64,000 bases of DNA from a virus. Below the pieces are notes generated by a model. The model was not told where the DNA came from, searched no databases, and saw nothing but the letters and a program-made list of their open reading frames with translations. Location of the stretch: IMG/VR virus record IMGVR_UViG_3300029448_000013, positions 9,263 to 73,262 of that record. One strand, given 5' to 3'. Position numbers and translations under genes: made by a program. Below, in pieces: positions 29,214-55,027 of this stretch (the first letter of the stretch is position 1; every line of letters begins with the position of its first letter).

Positions 29214-29218
29214 TTAAT

Positions 29219-29443
29219 TCACCCCATTTTCTCCGCCATCTTGCGAATCTCATCCCAAGACATTTGACCACCATCAGGTACTTGCGTATTCGCAATTACT
29301 GGTGTTGGAGTTTCACGAACAACCAATCCTGATTTCATCAGTATGTTGTCTTTGTTGTATACTGCTTGTTCCAAGGCATTTACCTTGTTCACAAGTTCTT
29401 TCATTAATAGTAACATTTCATTTTTTTCTTCTTTCTTGCTCAT
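29219..29443 (-). CDS. Small coiled-coil protein with scaffold-like C-terminus
   Basis: Ends MSWDEIRKMAEKMG, similar to scaffold end MSWGDIHNLARKVN. Confidence 0.65.
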   Translation of the reverse strand: MSKKEEKNEMLLLMKELVNKVNALEQAVYNKDNILMKSGLVVRETPTPVIANTQVPDGGQMSWDEIRKMAEKMG

Positions 29444-29445
29444 CT

Positions 29446-29763
29446 TTAATACTTCCTTTCTTCCCCTTCTAGTCTGAAACTTAATTCACCATCTGAACCA
29501 GTAAATATTGCGCTGTATCCTTTATCGCCATACAACTCTCTCGCCACTTCTTGTGCCTTCTTCTCTGACATTTTCAAGTCAGTGAGTTTAATGCTTGCAT
29601 ATCTTTCTTTCTTTTTACCTGCTTCGCTTATTATTGGGTCTACTTTCTCTCTAAACAAATCAATATACTCAGGCATTGATAAATCGTCATTACTGTTATT
29701 ACTAAACTCTGATTCTCTAGGATTCCTTATCGGTGGTGCTTTTAGTATATCATGCCATGTCAT
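29446..29763 (-). CDS. W-tag protein (MTWHDILKA)
   Basis: 105 aa with the shared N-terminal motif. Confidence 0.7.
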   Translation of the reverse strand: MTWHDILKAPPIRNPRESEFSNNSNDDLSMPEYIDLFREKVDPIISEAGKKKERYASIKLTDLKMSEKKAQEVARELYGDKGYSAIFTGSDGELSFRLEGEERKY

Positions 29764-29943
29764 TTAATTTCCCCTCGCTTTCTTGTTTCTCTCACGTATC
29801 ATAGCCAACAGTTCTGCTTCTTTATCCTCAGTCCTCTTGGCCGCTTCTTCGTCTTGTCCGGTAGAGGCTGTCGTTGTAACTCTTGCCATTGGGTCAGACT
29901 TCTCTGCACCACAATCTCCCTTTAGTGTTTCAAACCAACTCAT
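29764..29943 (-). CDS. W-tag protein (MSWFETLKG), not in ORF track
   Basis: 59 aa MSWFETLKGDCGAEKSDPM...KKARGN; AGGTGA RBS; fills the gap exactly. Confidence 0.7.
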   Translation of the reverse strand: MSWFETLKGDCGAEKSDPMARVTTTASTGQDEEAAKRTEDKEAELLAMIRERNKKARGN

Positions 29944-29949
29944 TCTAAA

Positions 29950-30219
29950 TCACCTTTTCATTCTACTATCTATATCATAGCCAAATACTTTAGATTCTCT
30001 ACCATCATAAAACTCTTGAAACTCTTTTAAGAGTCTTGCAAGTTTTCTAATTTTAGATAGTTCAAACTCATCTTTTTCTCTTAGACCATCATTAGCCACT
30101 AATAACGTATCTTCAAACTCATCTAATCCAACATCTCTAATTATATCTGCCAAAGCATTTCCAATATCACTTTGATATGGTGCTACACCATCTTCTTTAA
30201 TCACTTCTTTCCAACTCAT
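29950..30219 (-). CDS. W-tag protein (MSWKEVIKED)
   Basis: 89 aa with the shared N-terminal motif. Confidence 0.7.
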   Translation of the reverse strand: MSWKEVIKEDGVAPYQSDIGNALADIIRDVGLDEFEDTLLVANDGLREKDEFELSKIRKLARLLKEFQEFYDGRESKVFGYDIDSRMKR

Positions 30220-30220
30220 T

Positions 30221-30499
30221 CTAATCCATCCTTTTTAATGCATATGCGAATGCAACATCTTTTAGTTCCTTTTCTGACAATTCATTGTCTTGTAGTCTTT
30301 CATAAAATTCCATCAATCTGTTAGCCTTAGCGGGGGTTAATCTTCCCCCTCTCTGTTCTAATTGTTCTCCAAAAACTTGTTCAACTCTTAACGTGTTATA
30401 CTTCTTACCATGTATGGTAACTTTTTTGTTAGAGTGTTGGTCGAACATCTCTTCAACATCATTGGTTTTATCTTCTTTGATTACTTCTTTCCAACTCAT
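30221..30499 (-). CDS. W-tag protein (MSWKEVIKED)
   Basis: 92 aa; first 10 aa identical to the neighbour, remainder unrelated. Confidence 0.7.
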   Translation of the reverse strand: MSWKEVIKEDKTNDVEEMFDQHSNKKVTIHGKKYNTLRVEQVFGEQLEQRGGRLTPAKANRLMEFYERLQDNELSEKELKDVAFAYALKRMD

Positions 30500-30569
30500 T
30501 CTAAATCACCTATTATTGGTAAACTCATTCCTACTTGCCACACTATTATGTCAGATACTAATCTAAGTT

Positions 30570-30893
30570 TCATTTTTTCTTCTCTCCTTTTGGATATGCT
30601 ACACTTCTAATTTGACCATACAATGTTTCGTAGTCTTTACGAAGTTCAGCAGCACTTGCGAGTATATCTAGATTTTTTTCACTAAATGATTTTACTTTTT
30701 TAGTAAGTAATTTATCGGACTTAACAACATCAAGTTCTTCTAGTTCTTTAATGAGGTCTTCTAACTTAGTCATCTCCTGACCCATGTATTCGTTTGGTTG
30801 AGTTGATTGTAGAAGTTTTTTAATTTTCTTCTTTTGTTTAGGCTCTAGTTTTTCTAGAAAATCTGATGCCTTCAGTATCTCCTGCCACGCCAT
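30570..30893 (-). CDS. W-tag protein (MAWQEILKA)
   Basis: 107 aa K/E/L-rich helical. Confidence 0.7.
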   Translation of the reverse strand: MAWQEILKASDFLEKLEPKQKKKIKKLLQSTQPNEYMGQEMTKLEDLIKELEELDVVKSDKLLTKKVKSFSEKNLDILASAAELRKDYETLYGQIRSVAYPKGEKKK

Positions 30894-30914
30894 ATTGTTC
30901 TCTCCTATGTATGC

Positions 30915-32033
30915 TCAGTTAATGTTGATTGCCCTTGTTTTGTTATCTTCTAGTTTAAATTTATATTTTCCTACTGTAACACTAATCAGTTTTTTCATTT
31001 TCTGATGTGTCTTGTCTAACACCGCTACTTTGGTTTCTTCTACTTCGTTGTTTCTCATGTTCAAAACCATTTCTAGAATCTCTTCAACCTTGTCTATTAA
31101 TGTAGGGATTTCTGCTGCTATACTGCGGTAGTTATCAAATATCTCTAGTTGTTGCTCATAAATTTTCTTACCTTCTTGAGTTGATTCATCTATTCTTTGT
31201 GGAAACATCACTCCTCCGATATCCACTACGTCTGCATCAACTTCTCTTCCCAATGCAAATTTCCAATTTTCATCTTCAGCATCAAGAGATTTGGTTAATG
31301 TTGATTCTTGTAACTCTTTGATTCTATCTAAGGTAAGAAGTATCTCTCTCATTTTTGTCAATAGTATATCAGGGTTTTCAGGAAGATTATCAATATCTAT
31401 TTCTTCAGTTTTTTCTAACATAGAAGTAACCTTGTCTAATGCTCCTCTAGTCATTTTTTTACCCGTAAGCAATCCTCTTGGCATATCAGCAGCCGCTTCA
31501 AAAAACTCTCTTAATATTTCAAGAGATTCTTTACCGTTGTATGTTTTTTCTACCTGAGTATCAAAAGCATCAGTGTCACCTGAAATTGTTATTCCTAAAT
31601 CTTCAGCATCCCGAAAGAATAGTTCCAACAAATTGTTTGGTGCAGTTTTTTGTATAATACTCTGATAAAAATTATCTATCTTTTCTTTACTTCTAGTTCT
31701 AGGTATGAGATATGATTTGCTAAATTCTATCATTGTTCCACGCATATCTGAATCAGTAACATCAGCAGTTCTACTAAATCTTTCTAGAATCTCTGTCCAC
31801 ATTGTAACAGTAGTTGCTAACGCATCTGCTCTTTCCTTTGCTGCTTCTGATTGTCGGGCTGCTTGTTCTGATTCTTTAGCCTCTTTTTCTGATTGTCGTT
31901 TATCCCTTGCTTCTACTTGCTTAGGAGTTAACTGGCGTATTCCTTCGTCAGTATCTTCTTCTGTTTCAGCAGTGAAATCAGTAATATCAAGCGATTTCTT
32001 TTTACGCAAGATATCCATAAAATCCTGCGACAT
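30915..32033 (-). CDS. Acidic helical protein with variant tag (MSQDFMDILRK)
   Basis: 372 aa E/D/K-rich ORF. Confidence 0.65.
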   Translation of the reverse strand: MSQDFMDILRKKKSLDITDFTAETEEDTDEGIRQLTPKQVEARDKRQSEKEAKESEQAARQSEAAKERADALATTVTMWTEILERFSRTADVTDSDMRGTMIEFSKSYLIPRTRSKEKIDNFYQSIIQKTAPNNLLELFFRDAEDLGITISGDTDAFDTQVEKTYNGKESLEILREFFEAAADMPRGLLTGKKMTRGALDKVTSMLEKTEEIDIDNLPENPDILLTKMREILLTLDRIKELQESTLTKSLDAEDENWKFALGREVDADVVDIGGVMFPQRIDESTQEGKKIYEQQLEIFDNYRSIAAEIPTLIDKVEEILEMVLNMRNNEVEETKVAVLDKTHQKMKKLISVTVGKYKFKLEDNKTRAININ

Positions 32034-32038
32034 CTAAA

Positions 32039-32269
32039 TCATCCCCAAGGATTGTTTGGTGTTTTTGACCTCTTCTTTTTAGGCAGTAAAATAGCATCGG
32101 GAACATCTCTTGTATCAGGAGATTTCTTTTCCACAGCATTAGGGTCAATACCACCAACAGAATAATCTCTGTTCTTAGTGGCATTCCTACTGTGGTGAGC
32201 ATATTGCTCTGCTCTTGCGTTCGCTAGTTCCCTTTCTAATTCTTTTACTCCTTTCTTTTTTTCTGTCAT
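32039..32269 (-). CDS. Small basic hypothetical protein
   Basis: 76 aa, ATGA-coupled to the upstream gene. Confidence 0.6.
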   Translation of the reverse strand: MTEKKKGVKELERELANARAEQYAHHSRNATKNRDYSVGGIDPNAVEKKSPDTRDVPDAILLPKKKRSKTPNNPWG

Positions 32270-32517
32270 TTCTTTTCCTCCCTTAATTGTTTGAAATCTT
32301 CTCTATCGATGTCTCCATCCTTGTCTTTATCTAGTTTCTTTTGTCCACCATAAAGTGTCTTTTCCATTTCTTCAGCAACAGCAGGGTCAACTGGATGTTC
32401 TCTTGCTTCATGCATATCTCTAGCAGGTTTGATTTTACCTTCTTCTGTATCCATCATATCTCCACCATCATCAGGCATTGGCATGTCAATTTGTTTGATT
32501 ACATTCCACCAGTTCAT
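32266..32517 (-). CDS. W-tag protein (MNWWNVIKQ) with EF-hand-like loop
   Basis: LDKDKDGDIDREDF matches a DxDxDG Ca-binding loop. Confidence 0.7.
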   Translation of the reverse strand: MNWWNVIKQIDMPMPDDGGDMMDTEEGKIKPARDMHEAREHPVDPAVAEEMEKTLYGGQKKLDKDKDGDIDREDFKQLREEKK

Positions 32518-32522
32518 CTCTC

Positions 32523-32810
32523 TCACCACAGTTTTTTACATGCTAGGCACTTGGGGGTAGTAATTCTACCTTTACATTGGTCACAGTTATGCCTTGCTCT
32601 GAAATTCTTTCTCCTAGCAGGGTCTTTGTGTGTTCCACCACCACGATTCTTACCCTTTCTCTTGTAATTACCGTAGCCTTTAGCACCAGCATGAATCTTC
32701 TTTCCTTCATGAGTTAGCATCATTATCTTCTTACCATCTCTGTCAGAAGGATAAACAGTGCCAACTCTCATGTCTTCCTTATCTTTCTTAACTACTGTAA
32801 ACCAACTCAT
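32523..32810 (-). CDS. W-tag basic protein (MSWFTVVKK), DUF5754-like
   Basis: IHAGAKGYGNY...HKDPARRKNFRARHNC resembles a widespread viral basic family. Confidence 0.6.
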   Translation of the reverse strand: MSWFTVVKKDKEDMRVGTVYPSDRDGKKIMMLTHEGKKIHAGAKGYGNYKRKGKNRGGGTHKDPARRKNFRARHNCDQCKGRITTPKCLACKKLW

Positions 32811-33779
32811 CTAACCCCTCCTCTTGAACCAGCCATGAAGACCCTCATCTTTTTCTCGGCTAAACGTTCCAGCCTTTCTTTTCTTCGGTTTCCCGCCTCT
32901 TCTCTTGTAATCCTTACAAGCAGAACAAGTTGGACGACATCTTCTCTTTGTTCCTTTTGAAGCATCTTTTCTACCACACGATTCTGTTCCGGGTTTGTCA
33001 TCATCACAAGAAGCACAACTAACCCAATCTTTCACTAGCATATCTTCCCAAGATTTTTTGACATCCCTATCTAAATACGCATCAGCAATTAGAAGCCCTG
33101 CTTCCTTTCCAATTTCGATGTCGCTTGGATAATGGCTGCCCATTTTAACTCTTGATAGTGATATCTTCCCGGCAAGTTTCATCAACTCCTCCTCTTTGTC
33201 AGGATACTCCTTACCTAAAATCTTGGCTAATGCATAGGCTTCCATCGCATGACCGCTTGGAAAGGATGGACTATCATCTGTATCGGTTGTGGACTCTATC
33301 TTGTCTGAAATCTCATATGGTCTTGGTCTTCCGTATTTCACTTTGAGTTTGATTGTATGGATATCGATATCCTCAATCAAATCCTCTCTATCCTCCTTAC
33401 TCTCACCAACAACCTTCAACATCATCTCGTTATTGCTTTCGTCTAGGTCTTCCATTTCTTCATCATCAATCTTGTTAGCGTTCATCATAGCGAGAACTTT
33501 AGGAAGTTCCTTCTCATTCTCAGGATGTTTATAGTCAGGGAAGTCTACATCGAATGAAGGCTCAGACTCAAACAGTCTCCTCTTTTCCTCTGACAGATTC
33601 TTAGGAGTGTATTTTGATTCTGCTTTCTTCACCGAGTTACCCCAATTAGCAGCACCAACCTTTCTACACTGTACTAATGCACCTGAAGCATAAGCAGAAG
33701 GCCACTTCTTGTATCTGCTTCTGACCTTGCGATAACAAGCATCTTTCTCTTTTTTTAATTCCTCAAACCAAAGAGTCAT
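32811..33779 (-). CDS. W-tag protein (MTLWFEELKK) containing a PAP2-superfamily phosphatase
   Basis: KxxxxRPRP, PSFPSGH and SRxxxGxHYPSD motifs, flanked by basic Cys-containing domains (WPSAYASGALVQCRK); GGAGG RBS. Confidence 0.8.
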   Translation of the reverse strand: MTLWFEELKKEKDACYRKVRSRYKKWPSAYASGALVQCRKVGAANWGNSVKKAESKYTPKNLSEEKRRLFESEPSFDVDFPDYKHPENEKELPKVLAMMNANKIDDEEMEDLDESNNEMMLKVVGESKEDREDLIEDIDIHTIKLKVKYGRPRPYEISDKIESTTDTDDSPSFPSGHAMEAYALAKILGKEYPDKEEELMKLAGKISLSRVKMGSHYPSDIEIGKEAGLLIADAYLDRDVKKSWEDMLVKDWVSCASCDDDKPGTESCGRKDASKGTKRRCRPTCSACKDYKRRGGKPKKRKAGTFSREKDEGLHGWFKRRG

Positions 33780-33879
33780 GCTTTTCCTCCAAATATTTCC
33801 TGATTCTTTCATCTGTTTCTGCATTGAGTCTGTCTATTTCTTTCTTCCACATTTTGACAAACTCAAGTATGTCACTCAA
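33763..33879 (-). CDS. Possible 38-aa protein coupled to the portal stop
   Basis: TTG start overlapping the portal TGA; MSDILEFVKMWKKEIDRLNAE... helical. Confidence 0.35.
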   Translation of the reverse strand: MSDILEFVKMWKKEIDRLNAETDERIRKYLEEKHDSLV

Positions 33880-35501
33880 CCTACTCTCCTCTCTGTTCGT
33901 GAATCAACATTCTGATTACCCGCTTCTTGTGGTAATCCTGTAAATCTCTTGTCAGGGCCAGTTTCCATAGACGGTTTGTTTCTAGTTTCTCCACCGCCTT
34001 GACCCACCAATTGTTGTTCTTGTAATTGCCCAAGTTGGCTTGCATCAATGTCTGTTCCTGCGTATGGGTCAGTTTCTACTTCTCCCTCTGCTCCTTCTTG
34101 CGGTGGTGCTTCAGGTTTAGGGTCAGGTTTCTTGAAGGTGAATCTACCTTCATCATCCATATCGACCTCAAACCCTAGATTCTTAATTGATGCTGCTACG
34201 TTAACTTCAATCTCCCTCTTTCGTAGTTTAGCAATCTCATCCTCTTCCTCTGATGGAGGTAGTTTCAACTGCCAATCTGTAATTCCGAATTCCTTAGTCA
34301 TAAATGGAAACACATAATTATTCCAAATAGTCTGTGCCATTTCCACTGCTCTATTAGTTACGAGTATCTGCATACCCTCGTTATTCAAACCACCACTGGC
34401 AGAGTTGTCTGCCATGAAGATTTTACTCACACCATAGAAAGCAGCAATCCTATCTCTCAAGTCTTCTTTGACTTGTATGTAATCCATTTCTTTCAGACTA
34501 TCCATGAACTTGACCCATTCGACACCTCCTTTTCCTTCACCTTCTATTCCCATTACAGGAATGAAGTGTGGGTCTTGTTCCATCTTCTCCTTTACACCAC
34601 GCCAAAATGATTTCATTGACTCCATGTTTCTAGTTTGTACAGTCAATATTCCTCTTGGCATTCTCGCTTTGGTATATGATGAGTTGACATAGTTTTCCAT
34701 TGCAATCAGAGTTGTGATATGATTCCAAAGAGTCATGATAGGTGATTGTCCATATAATCTTGAAGGAGAATATTTACTGAAATGTAGGACTTCCCCTTCA
34801 ATGAATGCCTGTTCCTGACCATTGGCCCTATTCACATAATGCACTGGATGTAGTTCAGAACCGCACATCTCACAAGAATCACTCATGCTTCTACTGATAT
34901 TGTTTCTATGTGTTAAGCAAGTATATCCTTCACTTCCTCTTTCACCATTTTCATCTGCATAGATATGCATACTAACAGGGTCTCCTCGATAGACTTCCTT
35001 TATTCGGTGCATTCTGATATCACCATTTCCATCTAAGAAGTATTCCTTTACCATTACCATATATGCATCGTCCATGATATTCAAATCATCTTCCATCTCT
35101 TTCAAAACATCAACGAATAATTGTTCACCTTTGTTTACATAACCGTCTAATAGTTTCTCAATATACTTCAATTGGCTTCTATCCGGTTTGATTAGATTCG
35201 TACTCCCACATTCAACACATTCTGTTACAGCCTGTTTGTGTTCTCTTCCACAATCACCACAACGTGCAGTGAATTTTTCTTCCCAAATATATCCTCTTCT
35301 GAATATTTCATTCTTCAGTTGCGTTATGCACGTTCTAGCAATCACGGACTGATAAGTAACGTGATAGATTATTGGTGCAGTAATCAAGTACGAAGTATCC
35401 TTCTCTTGAATACCCGGATTGTATATCGTTCGGTCTTGTGGCTTCGGTGTTGTTCTGCGAGTTAATCGCCTAAACAACGAGGGTTTGTTTTCTTCTACCA
35501 T
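33876..35501 (-). CDS. Portal protein with Zn-ribbon insertions
   Basis: EVLHF...SRLYGQSPI, MPRGIL, IAAFYGVS portal motifs; extra CGDC..CVEC and C..H..CEMC segments. Confidence 0.85.
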   Translation of the reverse strand: MVEENKPSLFRRLTRRTTPKPQDRTIYNPGIQEKDTSYLITAPIIYHVTYQSVIARTCITQLKNEIFRRGYIWEEKFTARCGDCGREHKQAVTECVECGSTNLIKPDRSQLKYIEKLLDGYVNKGEQLFVDVLKEMEDDLNIMDDAYMVMVKEYFLDGNGDIRMHRIKEVYRGDPVSMHIYADENGERGSEGYTCLTHRNNISRSMSDSCEMCGSELHPVHYVNRANGQEQAFIEGEVLHFSKYSPSRLYGQSPIMTLWNHITTLIAMENYVNSSYTKARMPRGILTVQTRNMESMKSFWRGVKEKMEQDPHFIPVMGIEGEGKGGVEWVKFMDSLKEMDYIQVKEDLRDRIAAFYGVSKIFMADNSASGGLNNEGMQILVTNRAVEMAQTIWNNYVFPFMTKEFGITDWQLKLPPSEEEDEIAKLRKREIEVNVAASIKNLGFEVDMDDEGRFTFKKPDPKPEAPPQEGAEGEVETDPYAGTDIDASQLGQLQEQQLVGQGGGETRNKPSMETGPDKRFTGLPQEAGNQNVDSRTERRVG

Positions 35502-35502
35502 T

Positions 35503-36840
35503 TTATTCATCCTCGTTCTTCACTATGGATTCTAATTTATCCATTGTTGACATCTTATCGTTGTCGTAGTATTTTACAACGCTGTCTATGTCAATTTCAT
35601 ACTTTGCGAAATCATAGTTCTTATCATCCTTGTGATTTTCATATTTCATGAGTTTGAATAATTCTACCTTTCTAGCCTTGTACCATCCTGCTTTCTTATG
35701 GCTCTTTTTCATGCGAAGTAGTTCTACTAATATCTCAGCATTTTTCTTCTTCAATCTGAAATATGGCATACATTTGCTTAGTATCTCACCGACATCTTTC
35801 CTAGAGTAGAAGTTTAACCTATTAATTGGTTTAGTATCTTGTGGAGATTTTTGGTCTAGATGTAGTCTACCACATCCTAGAGACTTGTGCATCTCTAACA
35901 TGAATGCTTTACCTCTATCCCCTGTTGCAACTAATCCTACTCTTGGGTTGTGATTCTTATCCATTGTAATGTAGCCATCAGAATCAATAAATGCAGCAGT
36001 ATAAGCATAGATGTCTTTCTTTATCTCGTCACTCATTTTATACAATGCACCATCGACAACAGTTACATTTGCAGAACGTGCCATTTTTGAAATCATAGAA
36101 GGAGAGGATTTCCTAAAAAGATTCTGAGGCAATCTCTCATGTATTTGTCTTGCTGATATTCCCTGCTCTTCACTGACTAGTTTTACTATGTGTCTTTTGA
36201 TAAGTTCCTTTGGCCCAATATTTACCACATACTTTCTGATACGGCTGTTAACCTTCCTCTTACTGTTAGTCATATCCTTAGACAACTTAGCATATTCTTC
36301 CCCATATGCCATATCATCTCTATCTAATCTAGATTCCCAATATTTACAAAGTGTATCTACTATATCTCTACGAGTAGATGCATCATGAATTAAAGACAGT
36401 TTAATGATATTCTCTTCTGATAATGTCATATCTTTCAATGCAGGTTTGTATTTCTTAATCCAGTATATTTTGTTGATGCTTTCATCTAGATGTGAAGAGT
36501 ATGCATCAATTAGATTCTCTATCGATTTAGTCACTGCAAGTTTTGGTTCTCCTTTCAGTGTTCTTCGATATACTTTGAGTTCCTTAATCATGAGTGGAAT
36601 ATCTTTACCTTCTATTTCATATTTTTTCAAATCGTTTCTTATTGCTTTTCTAGCATCTGAAAGACCTACATTATAATGCTCTGCAAATCTTTTCTCTAAT
36701 TCAAAATGACTACTCAAGGGCTGTTCTTCTAACCATTGACTTTTGAGTTCAGAGGTAAGTGTTTTCTGTCTCTCTCGAAGTTCTTCTTCTTCGTCAGCGA
36801 GTTCCGCCACTTCTCTGAGTTTGTCTCCTTTTTCACTCAT
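35503..36840 (-). CDS. Protein with C-terminal LAGLIDADG endonuclease-like domain
   Basis: YAYTAAFIDSDGYI motif followed by LGCG and PYFRLKK; wHTH-like GISARQIHERL; long helical N-terminus. Confidence 0.75.
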   Translation of the reverse strand: MSEKGDKLREVAELADEEEELRERQKTLTSELKSQWLEEQPLSSHFELEKRFAEHYNVGLSDARKAIRNDLKKYEIEGKDIPLMIKELKVYRRTLKGEPKLAVTKSIENLIDAYSSHLDESINKIYWIKKYKPALKDMTLSEENIIKLSLIHDASTRRDIVDTLCKYWESRLDRDDMAYGEEYAKLSKDMTNSKRKVNSRIRKYVVNIGPKELIKRHIVKLVSEEQGISARQIHERLPQNLFRKSSPSMISKMARSANVTVVDGALYKMSDEIKKDIYAYTAAFIDSDGYITMDKNHNPRVGLVATGDRGKAFMLEMHKSLGCGRLHLDQKSPQDTKPINRLNFYSRKDVGEILSKCMPYFRLKKKNAEILVELLRMKKSHKKAGWYKARKVELFKLMKYENHKDDKNYDFAKYEIDIDSVVKYYDNDKMSTMDKLESIVKNEDE

Positions 36841-36849
36841 ACTCTCACC

Positions 36850-38286: not shown

Positions 38287-38771
38287 CAGAGAACACCCCT
38301 AATGAATGGATAAAACCATGAAGTGTTCTTCATTATTCCCCAATCATCTCCGTAACGCTCTCGAAATTTATCTACAATTTCTTCAGGAACTCCCATTAAG
38401 TCTTCAGTTTGAAATCCTGCTCTTCTGTTCATTGAAACCCACTGACCCTGTGGCACTTTGCTTGAACGTAGACCAACTAACTTTGGCTTACCAACAAACT
38501 TGTCTTTCCTGTAATCCAAAAGGGCTTTCCAGTTACCGCCACCTTTAGGTTGATTTTTTGCTCTAGCCTTCAGACCTCCGAAGATAACATAATCTCCCAT
38601 ATCAGTGTATCCGGCCATCCCAACTACTTCACCATCAACAGTACGAAGAATCCAATTTTCAATATTATACCATGATGGTGCTTTTCTTACAAACGGGTCT
38701 TCGGGATTATCCCTGTTCCACATGAGAATAGCATCTCTTTCAGAGACCTCTTTGAAATTAACGTCTGCCAT
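38286..38771 (-). CDS. GNAT-fold-like protein
   Basis: VDGEVVGMAGY...GGGNWKALL...RRAGF pattern; GGTGAGG RBS before MADVNF. Confidence 0.45.
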   Translation of the reverse strand: MADVNFKEVSERDAILMWNRDNPEDPFVRKAPSWYNIENWILRTVDGEVVGMAGYTDMGDYVIFGGLKARAKNQPKGGGNWKALLDYRKDKFVGKPKLVGLRSSKVPQGQWVSMNRRAGFQTEDLMGVPEEIVDKFRERYGDDWGIMKNTSWFYPFIRGVL

Positions 38772-38775
38772 TTCC

Positions 38776-41601: not shown

Positions 41602-43436
41602 TCTCTCACCCCCTGTGCTATCTGTACCCAAATAGCAGGTTCTACAAATCCACCTTCAGGACTTGGTATTTTCTTTCCCATCACCTTGCCCTCTGCACTG
41701 ATGTCTTTCATTCTATCCTTTACTCCGGCAAGAAACAGTTCTCTGATTTTAGGGTATGACTCTATAACTAGTTTCTTAAATTCTTCAGTGGTTATTTCCC
41801 CTTCTTCTAAATCTTCTTCATCTATTTCAGGGCCATCATATAGTTCACTTAATCTCTTTAACGTAATTACTATCCTATCTAAAGTCCCATCAGATTCTGT
41901 ATTTATCGAAGGAGTTAGGTCATCACTTATTACATCCTCAAGGATAGACCAAGCATCGACTTTCTGAGATTCAAAATACTTTAGTGTTTTCTTATCTTCC
42001 TTAGAAGTCGCAACCATTGTGTTATCACTTCTTCTCAATGTCATTTCCTTTAGGGCATCTTCTACCTTTTGTGAATCACCTAACTCTTCCTCAAGTTCTC
42101 TGAAGTTCTTGAAGGAGTCCTTGATTCCTAGTTTTTCTATGGCTTCCATAAAACCATCTTCATCACTTCCTTCTAATGCATCAACTATCTCATCTCTGAT
42201 TTCTTCAGTCATACTCTGAGAAGTGTCGCCTTCTACTTCACTCATCACCTTTTCAAAATCGGCATTTGCTTCTTCATCTTCTTTTATGTCGGCAAACATA
42301 TCTCTCTTCGCTTTGTTTCCCTTTCTTGAAACAGTGTTAAATTTATCTCTATTACTCTCTAAGAGATTTAATCTACTTTCTCTCTGTTCAGTTGTCTCGC
42401 CCTTTCTTCCATAAAGAGCAATAATGTCATCCTTGTATTTATCATAGATATTAGTAATAGATGGGTTTTTTATTGCCTCATCAATTATTCTTCTCAAAGC
42501 CCTTTCCTCTACATTATATCTTTTCTTATATGCAGTTGGTATCGCTGATTGATTAAGAGCCTCATTTTCTAATATGAACTCTAAGGCTGGTGACATCGCT
42601 CTAGTCCCAAACAGACTCTTTGCAACTGCATCACTCTTCTCCTCATAGATGAACTCTACTTTCTTAGGAGAAACTATATTCATTATTTTCTTAACATAAT
42701 CAATTGCAACATCATCCCCTATACTAGTTCCAATTTCCACTTGAGGAACTCCACCTATCTTTAGAATTTCTTTTATTTTCTTTAGTTCGGGATATTTATC
42801 TTCAGTATCAGTGAGGATGGCTCTCCTCAAACTTTTGTTTTCTTGGATATATCTCCTTGCTCTTTGTGTAATATTGGAAAGTTTTTCAGCATATCGCTCT
42901 TTACCTCTTCCCTCTAACATAGTAAGAAGTCCTTCATAATTTTTGGTGTCAATAAATGATTTGACATTCTTTGTAACTGATGCTCTTTTTCCTGTCAGTT
43001 TAGTTTTTTTTGGTTGTATATTTTCAAGTCTCTTAACCATCTCATCTACATTAGAAAATGGTGCGTCTGATAGTTTGAAGTCTGTTCCTCTGATGTTCAC
43101 AACTTCCCCTTGAAGAAGTCTCTTTGCCTTCTGAACAGATTGGACTTGGGAAGAAGTCAAACCGTCTTTCGTGTAATCTGCCCAAGTATCATCCTTAGAT
43201 GCTGCTTGCCAAATGTTGAATGTCGGTGTGTTGGGTTTAATTGGAAACTCCTTTGCTTCCTGCTTTCCAAAATCGAAGAGATTAGCATCTTTAGTCTTAG
43301 CAGATTCTTTCTCCCTGCGAAGTTTCTCTTCTCTCTTTCGATGAAACTTCTTTCTCTCTTCGTTATAGCCCATAACTTGAGGCTTCACCTTCTTTGGTTC
43401 GATTTTCTTTTCCTTCAGAACGTCTTGCCAACTCAT
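41598..43436 (-). CDS. Large W-tag protein (MSWQDVLKE)
   Basis: 612 aa K/E-rich helical; GAGGTGA RBS. Confidence 0.7.
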   Translation of the reverse strand: MSWQDVLKEKKIEPKKVKPQVMGYNEERKKFHRKREEKLRREKESAKTKDANLFDFGKQEAKEFPIKPNTPTFNIWQAASKDDTWADYTKDGLTSSQVQSVQKAKRLLQGEVVNIRGTDFKLSDAPFSNVDEMVKRLENIQPKKTKLTGKRASVTKNVKSFIDTKNYEGLLTMLEGRGKERYAEKLSNITQRARRYIQENKSLRRAILTDTEDKYPELKKIKEILKIGGVPQVEIGTSIGDDVAIDYVKKIMNIVSPKKVEFIYEEKSDAVAKSLFGTRAMSPALEFILENEALNQSAIPTAYKKRYNVEERALRRIIDEAIKNPSITNIYDKYKDDIIALYGRKGETTEQRESRLNLLESNRDKFNTVSRKGNKAKRDMFADIKEDEEANADFEKVMSEVEGDTSQSMTEEIRDEIVDALEGSDEDGFMEAIEKLGIKDSFKNFRELEEELGDSQKVEDALKEMTLRRSDNTMVATSKEDKKTLKYFESQKVDAWSILEDVISDDLTPSINTESDGTLDRIVITLKRLSELYDGPEIDEEDLEEGEITTEEFKKLVIESYPKIRELFLAGVKDRMKDISAEGKVMGKKIPSPEGGFVEPAIWVQIAQGVRE

Positions 43437-43443
43437 TGTAACT

Positions 43444-43662
43444 TCACCTCAACCTGAATAAATCCATTTCTTTGATTTTTTTTAGAGCCTCTCTGACATC
43501 ACTAACATGGTCAGGATTAGTCATATCCTTTGTCTTTGGTATTTCTTCATGAGCCATATCTTTCAATATATCAACAATATCATCAAACTCAAATGCTAAA
43601 TCTTGCAATTGCTGATGTGTTTCTCTTAATTGACTACCCTTCATTATATTTTTCCAACTCAT
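43444..43662 (-). CDS. W-tag protein (MSWKNIMKG)
   Basis: 72 aa with the shared motif. Confidence 0.7.
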   Translation of the reverse strand: MSWKNIMKGSQLRETHQQLQDLAFEFDDIVDILKDMAHEEIPKTKDMTNPDHVSDVREALKKIKEMDLFRLR

Positions 43663-43673
43663 TGTAATTTCCC

Positions 43674-43970
43674 CTACTGTCCTCTTCTTCTAATTGAATC
43701 AATAATATCTTTCTCTAACATTTTATCCCAAAATCCATCTGCATCGGGTAAAGTTCCATCGGCCTCTATGTCTGCATCCTTTATTAAAAACAAGTATTCA
43801 ACCAGTTCTCTTAGGTATTTTTCTCCCAATCCCTTTCTTTCTTCTCCATCATGATGAAAAGACAAAATTCCCCAATAACCCGCATAGAAAACTTCTGCAC
43901 TTGCCTTTCCATCTTTTGAATCCCAAAAAATTTCTAATTCTTCTTGTTTAAGAATATTTTTCCAACTCAT
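43674..43970 (-). CDS. W-tag GNAT-like protein (MSWKNILKQ)
   Basis: ERKGLGEKYLREL (acetyl-CoA motif A) and ADGFWDKM; ATGA-coupled to the TerS-like gene. Confidence 0.6.
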   Translation of the reverse strand: MSWKNILKQEELEIFWDSKDGKASAEVFYAGYWGILSFHHDGEERKGLGEKYLRELVEYLFLIKDADIEADGTLPDADGFWDKMLEKDIIDSIRRRGQ

Positions 43971-44629
43971 TGTAACTTCTCCTGCATCTTGTCTCTTACA
44001 TCCAACCAAACTTCAGGATGATTCTGTGCTAGAACCTCCTTGATGACTTGCATCTGATGAACGATGATAGTGTCTTGCCTCTTATGTACCAGTTTGCCCT
44101 TAAATTCTAGCAAATACTTCAGAGACTCACGAACTTCCTTCGCTAATTTAGTCAATGAGTCGATATATTTCGGGTCTGTTGAGTCTTCAGCAAAAAGCGT
44201 ATCAATTTTTTGCTCTAATCTCTGAACATTCACACTCAGAGTTTCGATTTCGTCAACTTCTCTAGTTGCAATCAGGTTCGCAGCAGATTGTTGGACAATT
44301 GGCTGAAGATGTTTCTCCATATGTCGCATGACTTGGACATCTGAGCAACCAACCATCTCTCCGACTGCTGAAGGAGTGACTTCTCCGGCATGAAGTCTTG
44401 ATTCTATTTCTGCTCTCATTGGATTGGAGCAGATATTGCAACTTGGATTTGCTGAATCGACATATCCGCCCATGTGATTCCTCTGATGTTTGGCAGTTGT
44501 GCCACTTTTCCAGTTCATTTCTTGGTCGAGAGCGTCTGCTGTGATATTCCATGATTCCAAATCAGCCTCAAGTTGACTCCTATCCTCATGCATACACAAA
44601 GGACAACGCTTTCTAGTAATCATACTCAC
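43967..44629 (-). CDS. Putative terminase small subunit / duplicated Zn-HTH protein
   Basis: Two CxxC...HTH...HxxxH units (CPLC..HQRNH; CNIC..HMEKH) followed by a coiled coil. Confidence 0.55.
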   Translation of the reverse strand: MSMITRKRCPLCMHEDRSQLEADLESWNITADALDQEMNWKSGTTAKHQRNHMGGYVDSANPSCNICSNPMRAEIESRLHAGEVTPSAVGEMVGCSDVQVMRHMEKHLQPIVQQSAANLIATREVDEIETLSVNVQRLEQKIDTLFAEDSTDPKYIDSLTKLAKEVRESLKYLLEFKGKLVHKRQDTIIVHQMQVIKEVLAQNHPEVWLDVRDKMQEKLQ

Positions 44630-44718
44630 TCAGCCCAACAATTTCTAAAACAATATGGGCAACAACTACCTATTGCCATGTCATCTACATCTACTCTTCT
44701 AATTCCTCTACACTTCAT
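44626..44718 (-). CDS. 30-aa Cys-rich micro-protein (not in ORF track)
   Basis: MKCRGIRRVDVDDMAIGSCCPYCFRNCWAE; abuts the upstream TAA and overlaps the downstream GTGA. Confidence 0.45.
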   Translation of the reverse strand: MKCRGIRRVDVDDMAIGSCCPYCFRNCWAE

Positions 44719-45825
44719 TTACTGTACCGCCTTTACAATCTGTCTCCAATCTGAAAAATCCTGCTTTTCTATTCCATCATCGGTTTTCTTATTCTTGAAA
44801 CCAGCGATTTCTGCCATGTTATCAATTTGCCTTCTTGATATGTCGAGGTAAGCATTATCTAAATCCAACTTTACAGAAGAACCCAACCACTCAAGCAACT
44901 TTACTGACTCTGCATCTGATAACTTGAAAGGTATCTTGGCTCTTTTAGTTCCCTCGTCTATTAATTCACGATGGACTTTTCTTGAAGCAAAATTACCACT
45001 TGTTTTTACTGTGTAAGCAGGATTGTTCATCTTACTATCAAACCAATTTTTGAATTCACTAATGTTCTCATATACCCATTTTGCTGCTACGCCTTTCTTC
45101 CTTCCTCTTTCCAACGCTCTCAAGCGAAGAGGCTTCTCAGGCTTGTTGACAAACTCGACTTTAGGTATGGCTTCAATAAAGTCATTACACATTGCTAGTA
45201 AACTAGGGTGTTTGAAATCCTCTATCTTATCAGCGAACAATGCTTGCCAAACAGGAGGTCTTGCTTGTTTGGGTTTCTTGCTATACCAATGAGGAGGAAC
45301 ATTATCTACTGTCCTATCCTTATATCTTCTCTGATATTTCACATACTTTGGAGTTCTAAAGTCACCATAGATTGGTTTCCGTGTCAAAACTTTACCTTGT
45401 TTGTTGTAAGAACGAATATCGTTAAATTTAATGTTGGCAGGATTTACCTTTGACTGAGCGTTTGTCCTAGCATCCTCCAAATACTTCTGTAAATCTGTTA
45501 TTGCTTGAATTTGGTCTTTTGAAAAAAATCTTTTGCTACCTGCTAACTTTGCCTTATCGATATACTCTTGTGTGGGGGCTTTGACATCCATAGGAGTTCC
45601 GTCTGATGAGGTTCTTGATTTAACTCCCATGTTCTGAATGAACTCTAGAATGTTAGTATCAGTTCTACCCATGTTGAGTTTGAACTTTCCAGCAGCGTCT
45701 GCCCAAGAAGCATAGTCTTCTGAGAAGTTAGGAATAGCATCAGGGTCTTTAGATTCTACGACCAATTCCGGTGTCACTTCTATCTGTTGAGTCTTCTTCC
45801 TTACGGGTTTTTTTCCTTTTACCAC
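44719..45825 (-). CDS. Basic protein with C-terminal W-tag (SDWRQIVKA)
   Basis: 368 aa K-rich; GGAGG RBS before GTG. Confidence 0.65.
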   Translation of the reverse strand: MVKGKKPVRKKTQQIEVTPELVVESKDPDAIPNFSEDYASWADAAGKFKLNMGRTDTNILEFIQNMGVKSRTSSDGTPMDVKAPTQEYIDKAKLAGSKRFFSKDQIQAITDLQKYLEDARTNAQSKVNPANIKFNDIRSYNKQGKVLTRKPIYGDFRTPKYVKYQRRYKDRTVDNVPPHWYSKKPKQARPPVWQALFADKIEDFKHPSLLAMCNDFIEAIPKVEFVNKPEKPLRLRALERGRKKGVAAKWVYENISEFKNWFDSKMNNPAYTVKTSGNFASRKVHRELIDEGTKRAKIPFKLSDAESVKLLEWLGSSVKLDLDNAYLDISRRQIDNMAEIAGFKNKKTDDGIEKQDFSDWRQIVKAVQ

Positions 45826-45943
45826 GTTTCTTTCCTCCCCCGTATTTTACATTGAATAATGGTGCTGTTCCGCCGGAGGTTGTGGTAACTGCGCCAGCCA
45901 TTCGCAAAATATTAAACCAAGAAGATTCGGATACTGATGACAC
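45749..45943 (-). CDS. Small basic protein with W-tag variant (SWFNILR)
   Basis: GGAGGT RBS plus GTG; overlaps the next gene by 77 nt. Confidence 0.5.
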   Translation of the reverse strand: MSSVSESSWFNILRMAGAVTTTSGGTAPLFNVKYGGGKKRGKRKKTRKEEDSTDRSDTGIGRRI

Positions 45944-46022
45944 AACCTGAACCTCCTGAATACACTGTGGACAATAAACATTGTTCTAAAACCATTCTGT
46001 TAATGAGTTTAGAAAACCAAGT

Positions 46023-46577
46023 TTAGAACTGTCCCTGTACCAAATTAGATTGAGGGTTGTCTTGAATAAACTCTCTTGCCCTTCTATCTTTCCCCGCAGT
46101 GAATGGGTTAATTTTTCTTCCTTGTCTTCTAAGTGTGTTCATGAAACCACTTCTTGAGTCTCTTGCTTGCAATTGTCTTGGGTCAGTCATACGCTGCCCT
46201 GTTGATGTCCGTATTGCAGTCTTAGGAATTTGAACAGTTATGTCCTTGCCCATGAAAGAGCCTTTTGCTTTGTATCCTGCTCTCTTGAAAACTTCTTGCA
46301 ACTTTGCCTTGATTCTATTGGGGTCTCCTCCTAATCTTCTGATTTGGTCTCGGCCAACAATAAACGTGTCTCCCTGAGGGCCACTGTTAGCAGCATTGTT
46401 GTCAACCCGCAACTTGAAAACTGGAAGTTGACCCTGTTTTAGATTAGCCATGATATTTGAAACGAATGGAGTTATCTGCTTCTCTTGGAACACTTCAATT
46501 TCCTGATTTATCTTCTGCTCGTTACCCGCTACACCGAACTGAGGAACTACCTTTAGAACGTCTGTCCAATCACTCAT
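46023..46577 (-). CDS. W-tag protein (MSDWTDVLKV)
   Basis: About 184 aa Q/R-rich. Confidence 0.65.
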   Translation of the reverse strand: MSDWTDVLKVVPQFGVAGNEQKINQEIEVFQEKQITPFVSNIMANLKQGQLPVFKLRVDNNAANSGPQGDTFIVGRDQIRRLGGDPNRIKAKLQEVFKRAGYKAKGSFMGKDITVQIPKTAIRTSTGQRMTDPRQLQARDSRSGFMNTLRRQGRKINPFTAGKDRRAREFIQDNPQSNLVQGQF

Positions 46578-46603
46578 CGTTAATCCCATGCCCTCTAAGT
46601 TAA

Positions 46604-46828
46604 TTATGATGTCGCTGCTGCATCAGAATAAAACCGTCTTTTGCACAAAGCACAAATTTCCCTTCCTTCAGGGTCTAAATCGCCTCTCATGAAATTAGAA
46701 GAACCACACTTGGCACAAACCTTCTCTGCTTCTGTCTTAGGAACTTCAGGAGTTTTGCTTGCCATCCTTTCTCGCATTCGCATGTTGTATTCTAAAGGGT
46801 CTATTTTTAGAACATCGAACCAACTCAT
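46604..46828 (-). CDS. W-tag Zn-ribbon protein (MSWFDVLKI)
   Basis: CAKC...CALC. Confidence 0.65.
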   Translation of the reverse strand: MSWFDVLKIDPLEYNMRMRERMASKTPEVPKTEAEKVCAKCGSSNFMRGDLDPEGREICALCKRRFYSDAAATS

Positions 46829-47175
46829 AGAACATCTCCCAATAAGACGGCTACCTTGTTTAACCCTACAATTAGTGACTCTATTTCCTTAGTTGTAGTG
46901 TCTTTCAATAATTTTTCATTTTGCTGTAAATCCCCATCTGTGTAATCTTCTAAGTCGTTTAGTAATTCTAAAACATCAAAATGTGCTGTTCTCATTTGAC
47001 CTATTGAGGCTTGCCTACGAGGACTAAACGCATCGGGTTGTAAGTCAAACTCTCTAATATTCGCCTCTGTGAATTTTCTATCCTCTAAATCTTCTGCTGT
47101 TATCTCTCTTGGGTTTTTTGGATTCTCTTTGGAATGAATAGTTCCCTTTCTTTTCACTACGTCTTCCCAACTCAT
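46825..47175 (-). CDS. W-tag protein (MSWEDVVKR)
   Basis: GAGGT RBS; first tagged gene of the block. Confidence 0.65.
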   Translation of the reverse strand: MSWEDVVKRKGTIHSKENPKNPREITAEDLEDRKFTEANIREFDLQPDAFSPRRQASIGQMRTAHFDVLELLNDLEDYTDGDLQQNEKLLKDTTTKEIESLIVGLNKVAVLLGDVL

Positions 47176-54663: not shown

Positions 54664-54667
54664 AGAA

Positions 54668-55025: not shown

Positions 55026-55027
55026 AA

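What the first reader, a model, noticed from the sequence alone, without database searches (positions are those of the whole stretch)
29219..47175. About 16 unrelated head-region proteins share an N-terminal W-tag: candidate capsid-targeting and cargo-loading system
Seen: N-termini MTWHDILK, MSWFETLK, MSWKEVIK (twice), MAWQEILK, MNWWNVIK, MSWFTVVK, MTLWFEELK, MSWQDVLK, MSWKNIMK, MSWKNILK, MSDWTDVLK, MSWFDVLK, MSWEDVVK, plus variants MSQDFMDILR and SWFNILR. The consensus is W-x-x-hydrophobic-hydrophobic-K. The bodies are unrelated (59-612 aa; PAP2 phosphatase, GNAT, EF-hand, Zn ribbon). I saw the tag only between the packaging and protease genes, not in tail or plus-strand genes. Established: T4 internal proteins use a 10-aa N-terminal capsid targeting sequence (MKTYQEFIAE) removed by the prohead protease. 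Inference: this is an analogous archaeal-virus address tag that loads diverse cargo into proheads for delivery with the DNA.
Basis: partly seen in the sequence, partly recalled or inferred. Interest (0 to 1): 0.9.

Follow-up and report, generated by a model that had tools for sequence, protein, structure and literature searches.

The report
Shared terminal W-tag on archaeal-virus head proteins
A marine archaeal virus and its many relatives put the same eight-residue tryptophan tag on dozens of otherwise unrelated small proteins encoded beside the head-assembly genes, most likely an address label that loads them into the capsid.

Summary
In the window, 13 of 26 genes between 28692 and 47181 start with M-x-W-x-x-Φ-Φ-K, against 0 of 55 genes elsewhere (Fisher p = 3e-8). 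Three more carry variants. The virus looks like a magrovirus (a tailed virus of marine Poseidoniales archaea).

The tag is lineage-wide. I found 632 tagged ORFs in 160 related IMG/VR loci, all on the structural strand. They fall into 145 BLAST-unrelated body clusters. Five complete genomes carry 9-15 strict tags each, 50 of 54 clustered around the terminase. Codons for the hydrophobic and Lys positions vary freely, so selection acts on the peptide.

New here: a near-identical M-S-W-x-[DE]-I motif sits 14 residues from the C-terminus of the protease-scaffold fusion and of a 74-aa protein. It is conserved in 45/45 and 64/68 distinct relatives. A W-x-x-Φ-Φ-K motif ends another conserved protein.

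This fits a capsid-targeting peptide, as in T4 CTS, the HK97 protease tail or encapsulin cargo peptides. Encapsidation, the binding partner and cleavage remain untested. I found no mention of the tag in three magrovirus papers or in one search for capsid targeting in archaeal viruses.

The parts
29446..29763 (-). 105-aa ORF with N-terminal tag MTWHDILK
   Evidence: 24.4 bits at residue 1
29764..29943 (-). 59-aa ORF with tag MSWFETLK
   Evidence: 25.8 bits
29950..30219 (-). 89-aa ORF with tag MSWKEVIK
   Evidence: Its first 30 nt differ at 2 positions from those of the next gene, but the two bodies fall into different BLAST clusters.
30221..30499 (-). 92-aa ORF with tag MSWKEVIK
30570..30893 (-). 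107-aa ORF with tag MAWQEILK, a conserved basic core family
   Evidence: M1 and W3 are invariant in 20 aligned orthologues.
30915..32033 (-). 372-aa ORF with variant tag MSQDFMDILR (F in place of W)
   Evidence: 18 homologous ORFs were found. 14 start M[AT]Q..FMD[IV]LR; the other 4 carry the same motif after a short MIIL extension.
32266..32517 (-). 83-aa ORF with tag MNWWNVIK and a weak EF-hand hit
32523..32810 (-). 95-aa ORF with tag MSWFTVVK, DUF5754
32811..33779 (-). PAP2-family phosphatase, about 322 aa counted from Met16, with variant tag MTLWFEELK
   Evidence: Homologues start MELWFEDLK, MDVWFDVLK or MSWFNILK.
41598..43436 (-). 612-aa conserved helical protein with tag MSWQDVLK
   Evidence: W3 is the only invariant column of 44 sequences; tag forms helix 3-9, followed by a disordered linker; no fold match
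43444..43662 (-). 72-aa ORF with tag MSWKNIMK
43674..43970 (-). 98-aa ORF with tag MSWKNILK
45749..45943 (-). Short ORF holding SWFNILR with no ATG before it. Doubtful or degenerate member.
   Evidence: Some homologues start MSWFDTLK or MNWFDQLK.
46023..46577 (-). 184-aa ORF with tag MSDWTDVLK (W offset by one residue)
46604..46828 (-). 74-aa ORF with tag MSWFDVLK
   Evidence: 28.4 bits
46825..47175 (-). 116-aa ORF with tag MSWEDVVK
24852..26081 (-). Prohead protease (Peptidase_S78) fused to a helical scaffold-like domain. C-terminal motif MSWGDIHNL at residues 396-404 (nt 24870-24896).
   Evidence: 45 of 45 distinct C-termini; long helix 298-379, terminal helix 398-408; the model is poor overall
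29219..29443 (-). 74-aa protein whose model-free sequence suggests an N-terminal helix and which carries the C-terminal motif MSWDEIRKM (residues 61-69). Putative small scaffold or core protein.
   Evidence: (64 of 68)
44719..45825 (-). 368-aa ORF (GTG start; 317 aa from the first ATG) ending ...SDWRQIVKAVQ, a C-terminal copy of W-x-x-Φ-Φ-K
   Evidence: 21 of 22 distinct C-termini
43967..44629 (-). 220-aa protein with a Cys-rich N-terminus and a weak HTH hit, ending ...VWLDVRDKMQEKLQ. Possible related C-terminal motif.
   Evidence: 25 of 25. The resemblance is weaker than for the other carriers.
26121..28685 (-). 854-aa protein with an ATP-dependent DNA ligase domain, lying inside the head module. 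Conserved internal W-[KR]-x-[TI]-[VI]-K at residues 44-49.
23489..24850 (-). Major capsid protein (HK97-type, SU10_MCP), a candidate receptor for the tag
33876..35510 (-). Portal protein
36850..38286 (-). Large terminase

Best explanation
The motif is a short amphipathic address peptide: Met, a small residue, Trp, two variable residues, two aliphatic residues, Lys. It recruits proteins into the assembling procapsid of a magrovirus-like archaeal tailed virus.

The protease-scaffold fusion and a 74-aa putative core protein carry a closely related Trp motif at their C-termini. That is where HK97-type proteases and phage scaffolds carry their capsid-binding determinant.

A fast-changing set of about 10-19 small, highly charged, soluble proteins per genome carries the motif at the N-terminus. 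The set also includes a 612-aa conserved protein and a PAP2 phosphatase; a few proteins carry the motif at the C-terminus, and the head-module DNA ligase possibly carries it internally. These proteins would dock on the same interior site as the scaffold, or on the scaffold core itself. They would then be enclosed, stay with the DNA and be delivered into the Poseidoniales host cell, as T4 internal proteins are.

Shown here: the motif, its restriction to the module and strand, selection at the peptide level, the diversity of the bodies, and the C-terminal copies on assembly proteins.

Inferred: binding to capsid or scaffold, encapsidation, delivery, and any cleavage after the Lys.
For: (1) Enrichment and position. 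13 of 26 module genes carry the tag against 0 of 55 others. 491 M-anchored matches in 80 terminase-centred loci are all on the structural strand. In 5 complete genomes, 54 pattern matches occurred against 0 for the reversed pattern, and 50 of the 54 lie around the terminase and portal.

(2) Unrelated cargo. 632 tagged ORFs give 464 distinct sequences and 145 BLAST clusters, of which 85 are singletons; lengths run 40-822 aa. Of 100 cluster representatives, only PAP2 and DUF5754 gave credible Pfam hits.

(3) Selection on the peptide. Positions 6, 7 and 8 use many synonymous and similar codons. In the 612-aa family, W3 is the only invariant column.

(4) The same motif on assembly proteins. M[STNA]W.[DEN][ILV] occurs outside N-termini exactly twice in 81 window proteins, both times 14 residues from the C-terminus of the protease-scaffold and of p74. 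The expectation was 0.055, and 4 of 2000 shuffles reached two or more. These are conserved in 45/45 and 64/68 distinct relatives. p368 ends in W-x-x-Φ-Φ-K in 21/22.

(5) The C-terminal Trp/His helix is older than the N-terminal tag. More distant viruses have it on their pre-MCP scaffold or protease (L216, L211, L215).

(6) Physical character. Tagged proteins have GRAVY -0.94 and 36% charged residues, and 0 of 462 have a TM-like stretch, against 7.7% of untagged ones. In the AlphaFold model the tag is a short helix followed by a disordered linker.

(7) Precedent. [quoted passage not shown] The T4 CTS is 10-19 residues, and residues 4 and 7 matter for targeting (PMC9026906, passages). The N-terminal 30 residues of P1 DarB are sufficient for targeting (PMC9024508, abstract and passages).
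Against: There is no direct evidence that any tagged protein is in a virion, and none for a binding partner.

The protease and p74 motif (W-x-[DE]-Φ-[HR]-x-Φ) differs from the N-terminal tag after the first hydrophobic residue. The protease copy scores only 2.2 bits on the tag matrix, so the two may not share a receptor.

A possible small-terminase-like protein (p220) also ends in a Trp motif. That would fit a terminase or portal hub as well as a capsid hub.

Four of the 54 strict matches in complete genomes lie outside the module. In one divergent relative (L227) the tagged genes lie downstream of the tail-side genes.

Ser at position 2 is encoded by AGT in 257 of 264 cases. Untagged starts use AGT in 129 of 251 cases, and bulk usage is 25%. 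So something also constrains the nucleotides at codon 2.

No conserved residue follows the Lys, so cleavage there is pure conjecture.
Confidence: 0.55

Rival explanations
1. The Trp motif docks proteins on a different hub of the morphogenesis machinery, such as the portal, the terminase or neck, or one another as an inner core. The proteins act as assembly or packaging accessories and are not delivered cargo.
For: The tagged genes flank the terminase and portal block. A Cys-rich, HTH-like protein that may be a small terminase (p220) and the gene just upstream of TerL (p183) also end in Trp motifs, in 25/25 and 9/14 distinct relatives. Scaffolds are also known to contact portals (general knowledge, recalled).
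Against: A portal or terminase offers only 12 or 5 sites, which is few for 10-19 different, rapidly changing proteins. Hypervariability with 145 clusters is typical of host-interaction proteins and not of assembly parts. The scaffold and protease C-terminus is classically a coat-binding element.
Confidence: 0.15
2. The motif is mainly a recognition or cleavage element for the S78 prohead protease. It would be a propeptide that keeps the proteins inactive or marks them for processing, and would carry no targeting information itself.
For: The tag ends in Φ-Φ-K. The MCP has an invariant G-N-[AS]-L-L-K followed by [AS][AGS]GVVGG at residues 23-28 in every relative, and a Φ-Φ-K-x-D-A-P block across the wider MCP family. 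The T4 CTS is removed by the prohead protease (PMC9026906, passages). HK97 MCP is cut after a Lys (recalled, not checked).
Against: The most conserved tag residue is Trp, which the MCP site lacks. Positions after the Lys are not conserved. The other Φ-Φ-K sites in the protease appear to lie within the protease domain itself, judged from sequence only. Processing inside a capsid still requires that the substrate get there first.
Confidence: 0.1
3. The terminal motif is a degron or a chaperone or unfoldase recognition tag. It could be read by host PAN-proteasome or Lon, or by the viral chaperonin, and would time the life or folding of late proteins.
For: It works at either terminus, as degrons do. 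Some magroviruses encode a chaperonin (PMC5434244, passages).
Against: Only 12 of 26 magroviruses encode a chaperonin, and the gene lies in the replication block (PMC5434244). No known archaeal degron has this form (recalled). Restriction to the head and packaging module is not explained.
Confidence: 0.07
4. The conservation reflects nucleic acid and not peptide function. It would be a shared translation-initiation region, or a recombination cassette that moves new genes behind a ready-made RBS and start.
For: The RBS, the spacer and ATG-AGT-TGG are conserved. AGT encodes Ser2 in 257/264 tagged starts, against 129/251 untagged starts and 25% in bulk. Base +4 is A in 86% and base +6 is T in 84%. 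The leaders of two neighbouring genes differ at 2 of 30 nt although their bodies are unrelated.
Against: Codons 6-8 vary freely while the residue class is kept. The same peptide is conserved at C-termini and once internally, where initiation is irrelevant. This may well add to the peptide function, as leader-mediated shuffling, but it cannot replace it.
Confidence: 0.06
5. The tagged genes are one old paralogous family whose bodies have diverged beyond recognition, and the N-terminus is simply the last conserved part.
For: Local paralogue arrays exist. L261 has a run of genes sharing W-x-x-I-L-K-N-I-Q-I-S-S-Q-R-T. Three window ORFs fall into one cluster.
Against: Lengths run 40-822 aa. The bodies include distinct Pfam domains (PAP2, DUF5754) and 145 clusters. 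The motif also sits at C-termini of unrelated conserved proteins.
Confidence: 0.04

Closest known systems
Bacteriophage T4 capsid targeting sequence (CTS) of internal proteins IPI, IPII, IPIII
   Same: Both are short N-terminal peptides shared by otherwise unrelated, fast-evolving small proteins of a tailed virus. In both, an aromatic residue and hydrophobic residues are spaced three to four apart. In both, the gene set varies between close relatives (PMC3012670 and PMC9026906, passages).
   Different: The host is archaeal and the protease is of the HK97/S78 type, not T4 gp21. There are many more tagged genes, 10-19 per genome. The consensus ends in Lys, not in the T4 L/I-x-E cleavage site. 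The same motif also occurs at C-termini, including that of the protease-scaffold. Targeting and cleavage are unproven here.
C-terminal encapsidation signal of the HK97 maturation protease (Duda, Oh and Hendrix 2013)
   Same: A protease of the same Pfam family (Peptidase_S78) carries a conserved short C-terminal element, and that element resembles the cargo tag.
   Different: I know the HK97 result only from its title in a reference list (PMC12749128) and from recall; the paper itself is not held. HK97 has no family of cargo proteins that reuse the signal.
Encapsulin cargo-loading peptides
   Different: Encapsulins are cellular compartments without DNA, portal or protease. Their peptide consensus is different. 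Each operon has one or a few cargo proteins, not a dozen.
Phage P1 DarB N-terminal packaging signal; propeptides of ejection proteins in giant phages such as SPN3US
   Same: N-terminal signals load anti-restriction or ejection proteins into heads (PMC9024508, abstract and passages; PMC5694885, seen in a search listing only).
   Different: These are single proteins or cleavage-site motifs. They are not a shared eight-residue tag on dozens of ORFans.

Membership tests
T4-type capsid targeting sequence | Short N-terminal peptide shared by unrelated proteins encoded by one virus | tested here: met
T4-type capsid targeting sequence | The peptide is necessary and sufficient to place a protein inside the prohead | not testable with these tools
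   Needs expression or proteomics. The one complex prediction gave no verdict.
T4-type capsid targeting sequence | Removed by the prohead protease at a defined site (L/I-x-E in T4) | not testable with these tools
   The tag has no L/I-x-E. It ends in Φ-Φ-K, and the residues after the K vary.
T4-type capsid targeting sequence | Sequence homology to the T4 CTS, or a T4-type (gp21) protease | tested here: not met
   The protease is Peptidase_S78 (HK97 type). The MCP is related to halovirus MCPs. The two systems are analogous, not homologous.
HK97-type protease or scaffold C-terminal capsid-binding tail | Conserved short element at the extreme C-terminus of an S78 protease or scaffold protein | tested here: met
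   45/45; also in distant relatives
HK97-type protease or scaffold C-terminal capsid-binding tail | The tail binds the MCP interior or the scaffold domain | not testable with these tools
   No binding data.
Magroviruses (Magrovirales) | MCP, portal and protease distantly related to haloarchaeal tailed viruses | tested here: met
   For the MCP only: one search gives 25-27% identity to HVTV-1 and HCTV-1 MCP over 87% of the query. Portal and protease were not compared with haloviruses. Criterion from PMC5434244.
Magroviruses (Magrovirales) | ATP-dependent DNA ligase and a homing endonuclease inserted in the structural module | tested here: met
   ligase, E 3e-30; 445-aa ORF between TerL and portal matches an endonuclease PHROG, E 3e-6. 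Criterion from PMC5434244.
Magroviruses (Magrovirales) | Near-complete archaeal replication module (PolB, clamp, RFC, MCM, primase) | tested here: inconclusive
   The record is 76% complete. The plus-strand part of the window shows RNR, a weak TFIIB Zn ribbon, ThiF and a pyrimidine-dimer glycosylase, but no polymerase lies within the window.

The most novel reading that the evidence does not exclude
Globally abundant marine archaeal viruses use a position-independent capsid address code. It is a Trp-centred amphipathic peptide that evolved by copying the scaffold and protease helix that binds the capsid interior. New genes acquire it by leader exchange. Each virion then carries a dozen or more hypervariable effector proteins into Poseidoniales cells together with the DNA, including a soluble PAP2 phosphatase and perhaps the puzzling head-module DNA ligase. 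The tag would then define, from sequence alone, the injected protein arsenal of an uncultured virus-host system. It would also give a ready-made cargo-loading handle for archaeal virus capsids.
Probability: 0.35. Interest if true: 0.9.

Novelty: new variant of a known kind. Interest (0 to 1): 0.78.

Why it matters
Magroviruses are among the most abundant archaeal viruses in the surface ocean. Neither they nor their hosts are cultured, and most of their genes are ORFans.

A sequence tag that marks which ORFans are probably virion-borne and injected would give a first functional handle on about 10-20% of their genes. It would point to the genes at the front line of the virus-host arms race. It might also explain why a DNA ligase sits among the head genes.

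It would be, as far as my searches show, the first capsid-targeting system described for an archaeal virus, and one with an unusually large and varied cargo set. The shared motif on scaffold, protease and cargo suggests how such systems could arise. The idea can be tested with existing marine viral-fraction proteomes and with simple co-expression experiments.

Tried and rejected
- Complex prediction of MCP (84-row alignment) with the 107-aa tagged family (20 rows) scored 0.00, below the mark. The controls were not run. There is no verdict either way.
- Fold search of the 612-aa tagged protein model (pLDDT 77) against the PDB gave no match at E <= 0.001, so its function stays unknown.
- The AlphaFold model of the protease-scaffold was poor (mean pLDDT 46.5). 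Only the long helix 298-379 and the terminal helix are usable.
- Pfam and PHROGs searches on the window's tagged proteins and on 100 cluster representatives were almost empty.
- I first read the [ILV][ILV]K sites in the protease (residues 19-21 and 171-173) as cleavage sites. I dropped this because both lie within the region matched by the S78 protease profiles and are invariant there.
- HVTV-1, the nearest cultured relative, has no tag and no matching protease tail, so its published virion data cannot be used.
- A distant MCP group (34% identity, L163-L210) has no tag, and its protease tail lacks the Trp. The query P0036 found no locus.
The HK97 protease paper is not held.

Full report
**What the window is.** Genes run on the minus strand from 1 to about 52 kb and on the plus strand after that.

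The minus-strand block holds a tailed-virus morphogenesis module:
- large terminase (36850-38286)
- portal (33876-35510)
- an S78 prohead protease of 409 aa (24852-26081)
- an HK97-type major capsid protein (23489-24850)
- an 854-aa protein with an ATP-dependent DNA ligase domain, lying between portal and protease

The ORF between terminase and portal matches an endonuclease PHROG. The MCP is 25-27% identical to those of haloarchaeal viruses HVTV-1 and HCTV-1. A ligase and a homing endonuclease inside the structural module, and halovirus-like head genes, are what Philosof et al. describe for magroviruses of marine group II archaea (PMC5434244, passages read). The plus-strand part encodes a ribonucleotide reductase, which that paper gives for group B.

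The record is 73 kb and estimated 76% complete. Its remaining 9 kb hold only giant tail-fibre-like ORFs.

**The observation.** Twelve are exact M-x-W-x-x-[ILVT]-[ILVM]-K starts. One has the Trp one residue later. Three are variants: MTLWFEELK, MSQDFMDILR, and SWFNILR without an ATG.

In my gene set of 81 ORFs, 13 of the 26 genes in 28692-47181 carry the tag and 0 of the 55 others do (Fisher p = 2.8e-8). Among 774 ATG candidates in all six frames, the 13 matches are all on the coding strand.

A scoring matrix built only from relatives' tags (351 distinct) ranks the 12 exact tags as the top 12 of 19,358 positions, at 23-28 bits. The next score is 10 bits.

The tagged genes form two clusters. One lies between the portal and the p74/p173/ligase/protease genes. 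The other lies upstream of the 951-aa gene, p183 and the terminase.

**The lineage.** The best 80 loci (72-98% MCP identity) gave 178 M-anchored matches with at least 40 residues of ORF remaining, all on the structural strand. A handful of these were one internal MCP false positive.

Eighty terminase-centred loci gave 491 matches, again none on the other strand. After removing duplicates there are 632 tagged ORFs and 464 distinct sequences of 40-822 aa (median 108). With the tag cut off, they fall into 145 BLAST clusters at E < 1e-3, of which 85 are singletons.

Five complete genomes of 98-103 kb hold 54 matches to a strict DNA pattern, and none to the reversed pattern. Fifty of the 54 lie within about 12 kb of the terminase, allowing for wrap-around of the record ends. 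One of the four outliers is not an ORF start.

A blind pattern scan of IMG/VR hit at least 120 stretches. Of 77 new loci, 59 hold ORF-start tags, mostly beside recognisable magrovirus genes. One 14-kb stretch holds 19 tags. Another relative has an MCP only 46% identical.

The tag is absent from HVTV-1. It is also absent from a marine group whose MCP is 34% identical.

**Peptide or nucleotide?** In 419 distinct strict tags:
- position 2 is S (264), N, T, D, K or A
- position 4 is F, E, Q or K
- position 5 is D, E, N or S
- position 6 is I, V or T
- position 7 is L, I or V
- positions 9-16 are charged or Pro/Gly-rich, with no consensus

Positions 6-8 use many codons (for example ATA, ATT, GTT, GTA; CTA, TTG, CTG, TTA; AAA, AAG). 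So the residue class, not the DNA, is conserved there.

In the fast-diverging 612-aa family, W3 is the only invariant column of 44 sequences.

There is one nucleotide-level oddity. Ser2 is AGT in 257 of 264 tags. That compares with 129 of 251 untagged Ser2 starts and 25% of bulk Ser codons. Also, two adjacent window genes share 28 of their first 30 nt although their bodies are unrelated. This suggests that leaders are copied or exchanged between genes, as well as being selected as peptides.

**The bodies.** Only PAP2 (E 2e-13) and DUF5754 (E 1.6e-7) are credible domain hits in the window. The same two are the only credible hits among 100 cluster representatives. PHROGs adds only families of unknown function.

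Tagged proteins are strongly hydrophilic and charged (GRAVY -0.94, 36% charged residues). None of 462 has a TM-like stretch, against 7.7% of untagged ORFs. This argues against a membrane or secretion signal.

The 612-aa protein folds as a mostly helical protein (pLDDT 77). Its tag forms a short helix (residues 3-9) on a disordered linker, and the model has no PDB fold match.

**The new clue.** The same motif appears at C-termini of assembly proteins.
- The protease is fused to an acidic linker and a long helical, scaffold-like region. It ends ...AEMSWGDIHNLARKVN.
- The 74-aa gene next to the tagged cluster ends ...GQMSWDEIRKMAEKMG.

The pattern M[STNA]W.[DEN][ILV] occurs outside N-termini exactly twice in the 81 window proteins. 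These are the two sites, each 14 residues from the stop. Residue shuffles give 0.055 matches on average, and two or more in 4 of 2000 shuffles.

The motifs are kept in 45 of 45 and 64 of 68 distinct C-termini of relatives. A 368-aa conserved protein ends in W-[RK]-x-[IV]-[IVM]-K, which is the tag consensus itself, in 21 of 22 relatives. A Cys-rich, HTH-like protein ends VWLDV[RK] in 25 of 25. The head-module ligase has a conserved W-[KR]-x-[TI]-[VI]-K at residues 44-49.

More distant viruses that lack N-terminal tags still have a W/F-x-x-[IV]-H-x-[LM] tail on the pre-MCP scaffold or the protease (L216, L211, L215). In the 34% group the homologous tail has no Trp. So the C-terminal helix seems to be the older element, and the N-terminal tag a later copy of it.

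**Mechanism.** In HK97-type systems the protease and scaffold are brought into the shell by short terminal elements. In T4 a 10-19-residue N-terminal CTS brings a diverse, fast-evolving set of internal proteins into the scaffold core and is then cut off (PMC9026906 and PMC3012670, passages). The N-terminal 30 residues of P1 DarB do the same job (PMC9024508).

The magrovirus pattern fits this logic. It has one motif shared by protease-scaffold, a small core protein and a hypervariable set of soluble small proteins, all in the head and packaging module.

I therefore favour a capsid-targeting peptide, at about 0.55. The rivals are:
- docking on another hub such as portal or terminase
- a pure protease-recognition propeptide
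- a degron or chaperone tag
- a nucleic-acid-level leader
- an old paralogous family

The MCP carries an invariant G-N-[AS]-L-L-K at residues 23-28, and a Φ-Φ-K-x-D-A-P block across the wider family. So cleavage after Φ-Φ-K is conceivable, but it is untested.

**What is not shown.** Nothing here shows presence in particles, the receptor, cleavage or delivery. The relatives are phylogenetically related, so counts of ORFs are not independent events; the 145 body clusters are the fairer measure. Gene starts are my own calls from ORFs and RBS context.

**Literature.** 'Find' searches for N-terminal, motif, targeting and similar terms in three magrovirus papers found no mention of the tag (PMC5434244, PMC11706807, PMC10160649). 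A full-text search combining 'archaeal virus', 'N-terminal', 'capsid targeting' and 'internal proteins' (a paper needed at least three of the four) found nothing on archaeal viruses.

**Verdict.** The closest known systems are analogues, not homologues. I rate it a new variant of a known kind, with interest 0.78.

Noticed in passing
window 26121-28685 (-): The head-module DNA ligase has a roughly 250-aa N-terminal extension. It holds a conserved W-[KR]-x-[TI]-[VI]-K at residues 44-49 in the relatives examined (the 25 commonest variants listed all keep the W). This may mean that the ligase is itself packaged, which would explain its odd position among the head genes.
   Followed up: partly
window 23489-24850 (-), MCP residues 1-35: The MCP N-terminus (T-[IVM]-K-D-L-E-x-x-T-Y-G ... 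G-N-A-L-L-K-[AS]-[AGS]-G-V-V-G-G) is near-invariant in close relatives. A Φ-Φ-K-x-D-A-P block is kept in homologues down to 27% identity. It may be a maturation cleavage site or a scaffold-contact helix.
   Followed up: partly
start codons of tagged genes, e.g. window 30219, 30499, 43436: Codon 2 is AGT in 257 of 264 Ser-containing tags. More generally it is A-N-T (base +4 is A in 86%, base +6 is T in 84%). This goes beyond the AGT preference of untagged starts (129/251). The cause is unexplained and could be translation initiation or leader copying.
   Followed up: partly
L261:1103-13058 (+): A relative carries 19 tagged ORFs in 14 kb. They include a tandem array of paralogues sharing an extended leader, W-x-x-I-L-K-N-I-Q-I-S-S-Q-R-T-[SG]-S-K; one of them is 806 aa.
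   Followed up: no
window 35503-36840 (-): A 445-aa ORF between terminase and portal matches an endonuclease PHROG (E 3e-6). This fits the homing endonuclease reported inside magrovirus structural modules.
   Followed up: no
window 53202-63334 (+): Plus-strand genes include a pyrimidine-dimer DNA glycosylase (53202-53774), a class II-like ribonucleotide reductase (56643-58574), a protein with a weak TFIIB Zn-ribbon hit (60029-60943) and a ThiF/E1-like protein (61168-61773).
   Followed up: no
window 1750-8787 (-) and the 9 kb before the window: There are very large ORFs of 2345 aa, and of 2118 and 1431 aa in the rest of the record. They are probably tail fibres or adhesins. None carries the tag.
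   Followed up: no
L227:6680-10218 (+) and L252:4239-1762 (-): In more divergent relatives (MCP 46-58% identical) tagged genes also lie downstream of the MCP and tail-side genes. Some of these tags end in Q instead of K (MSWEDILQKK, MNWKDTLQKK).
   Followed up: no
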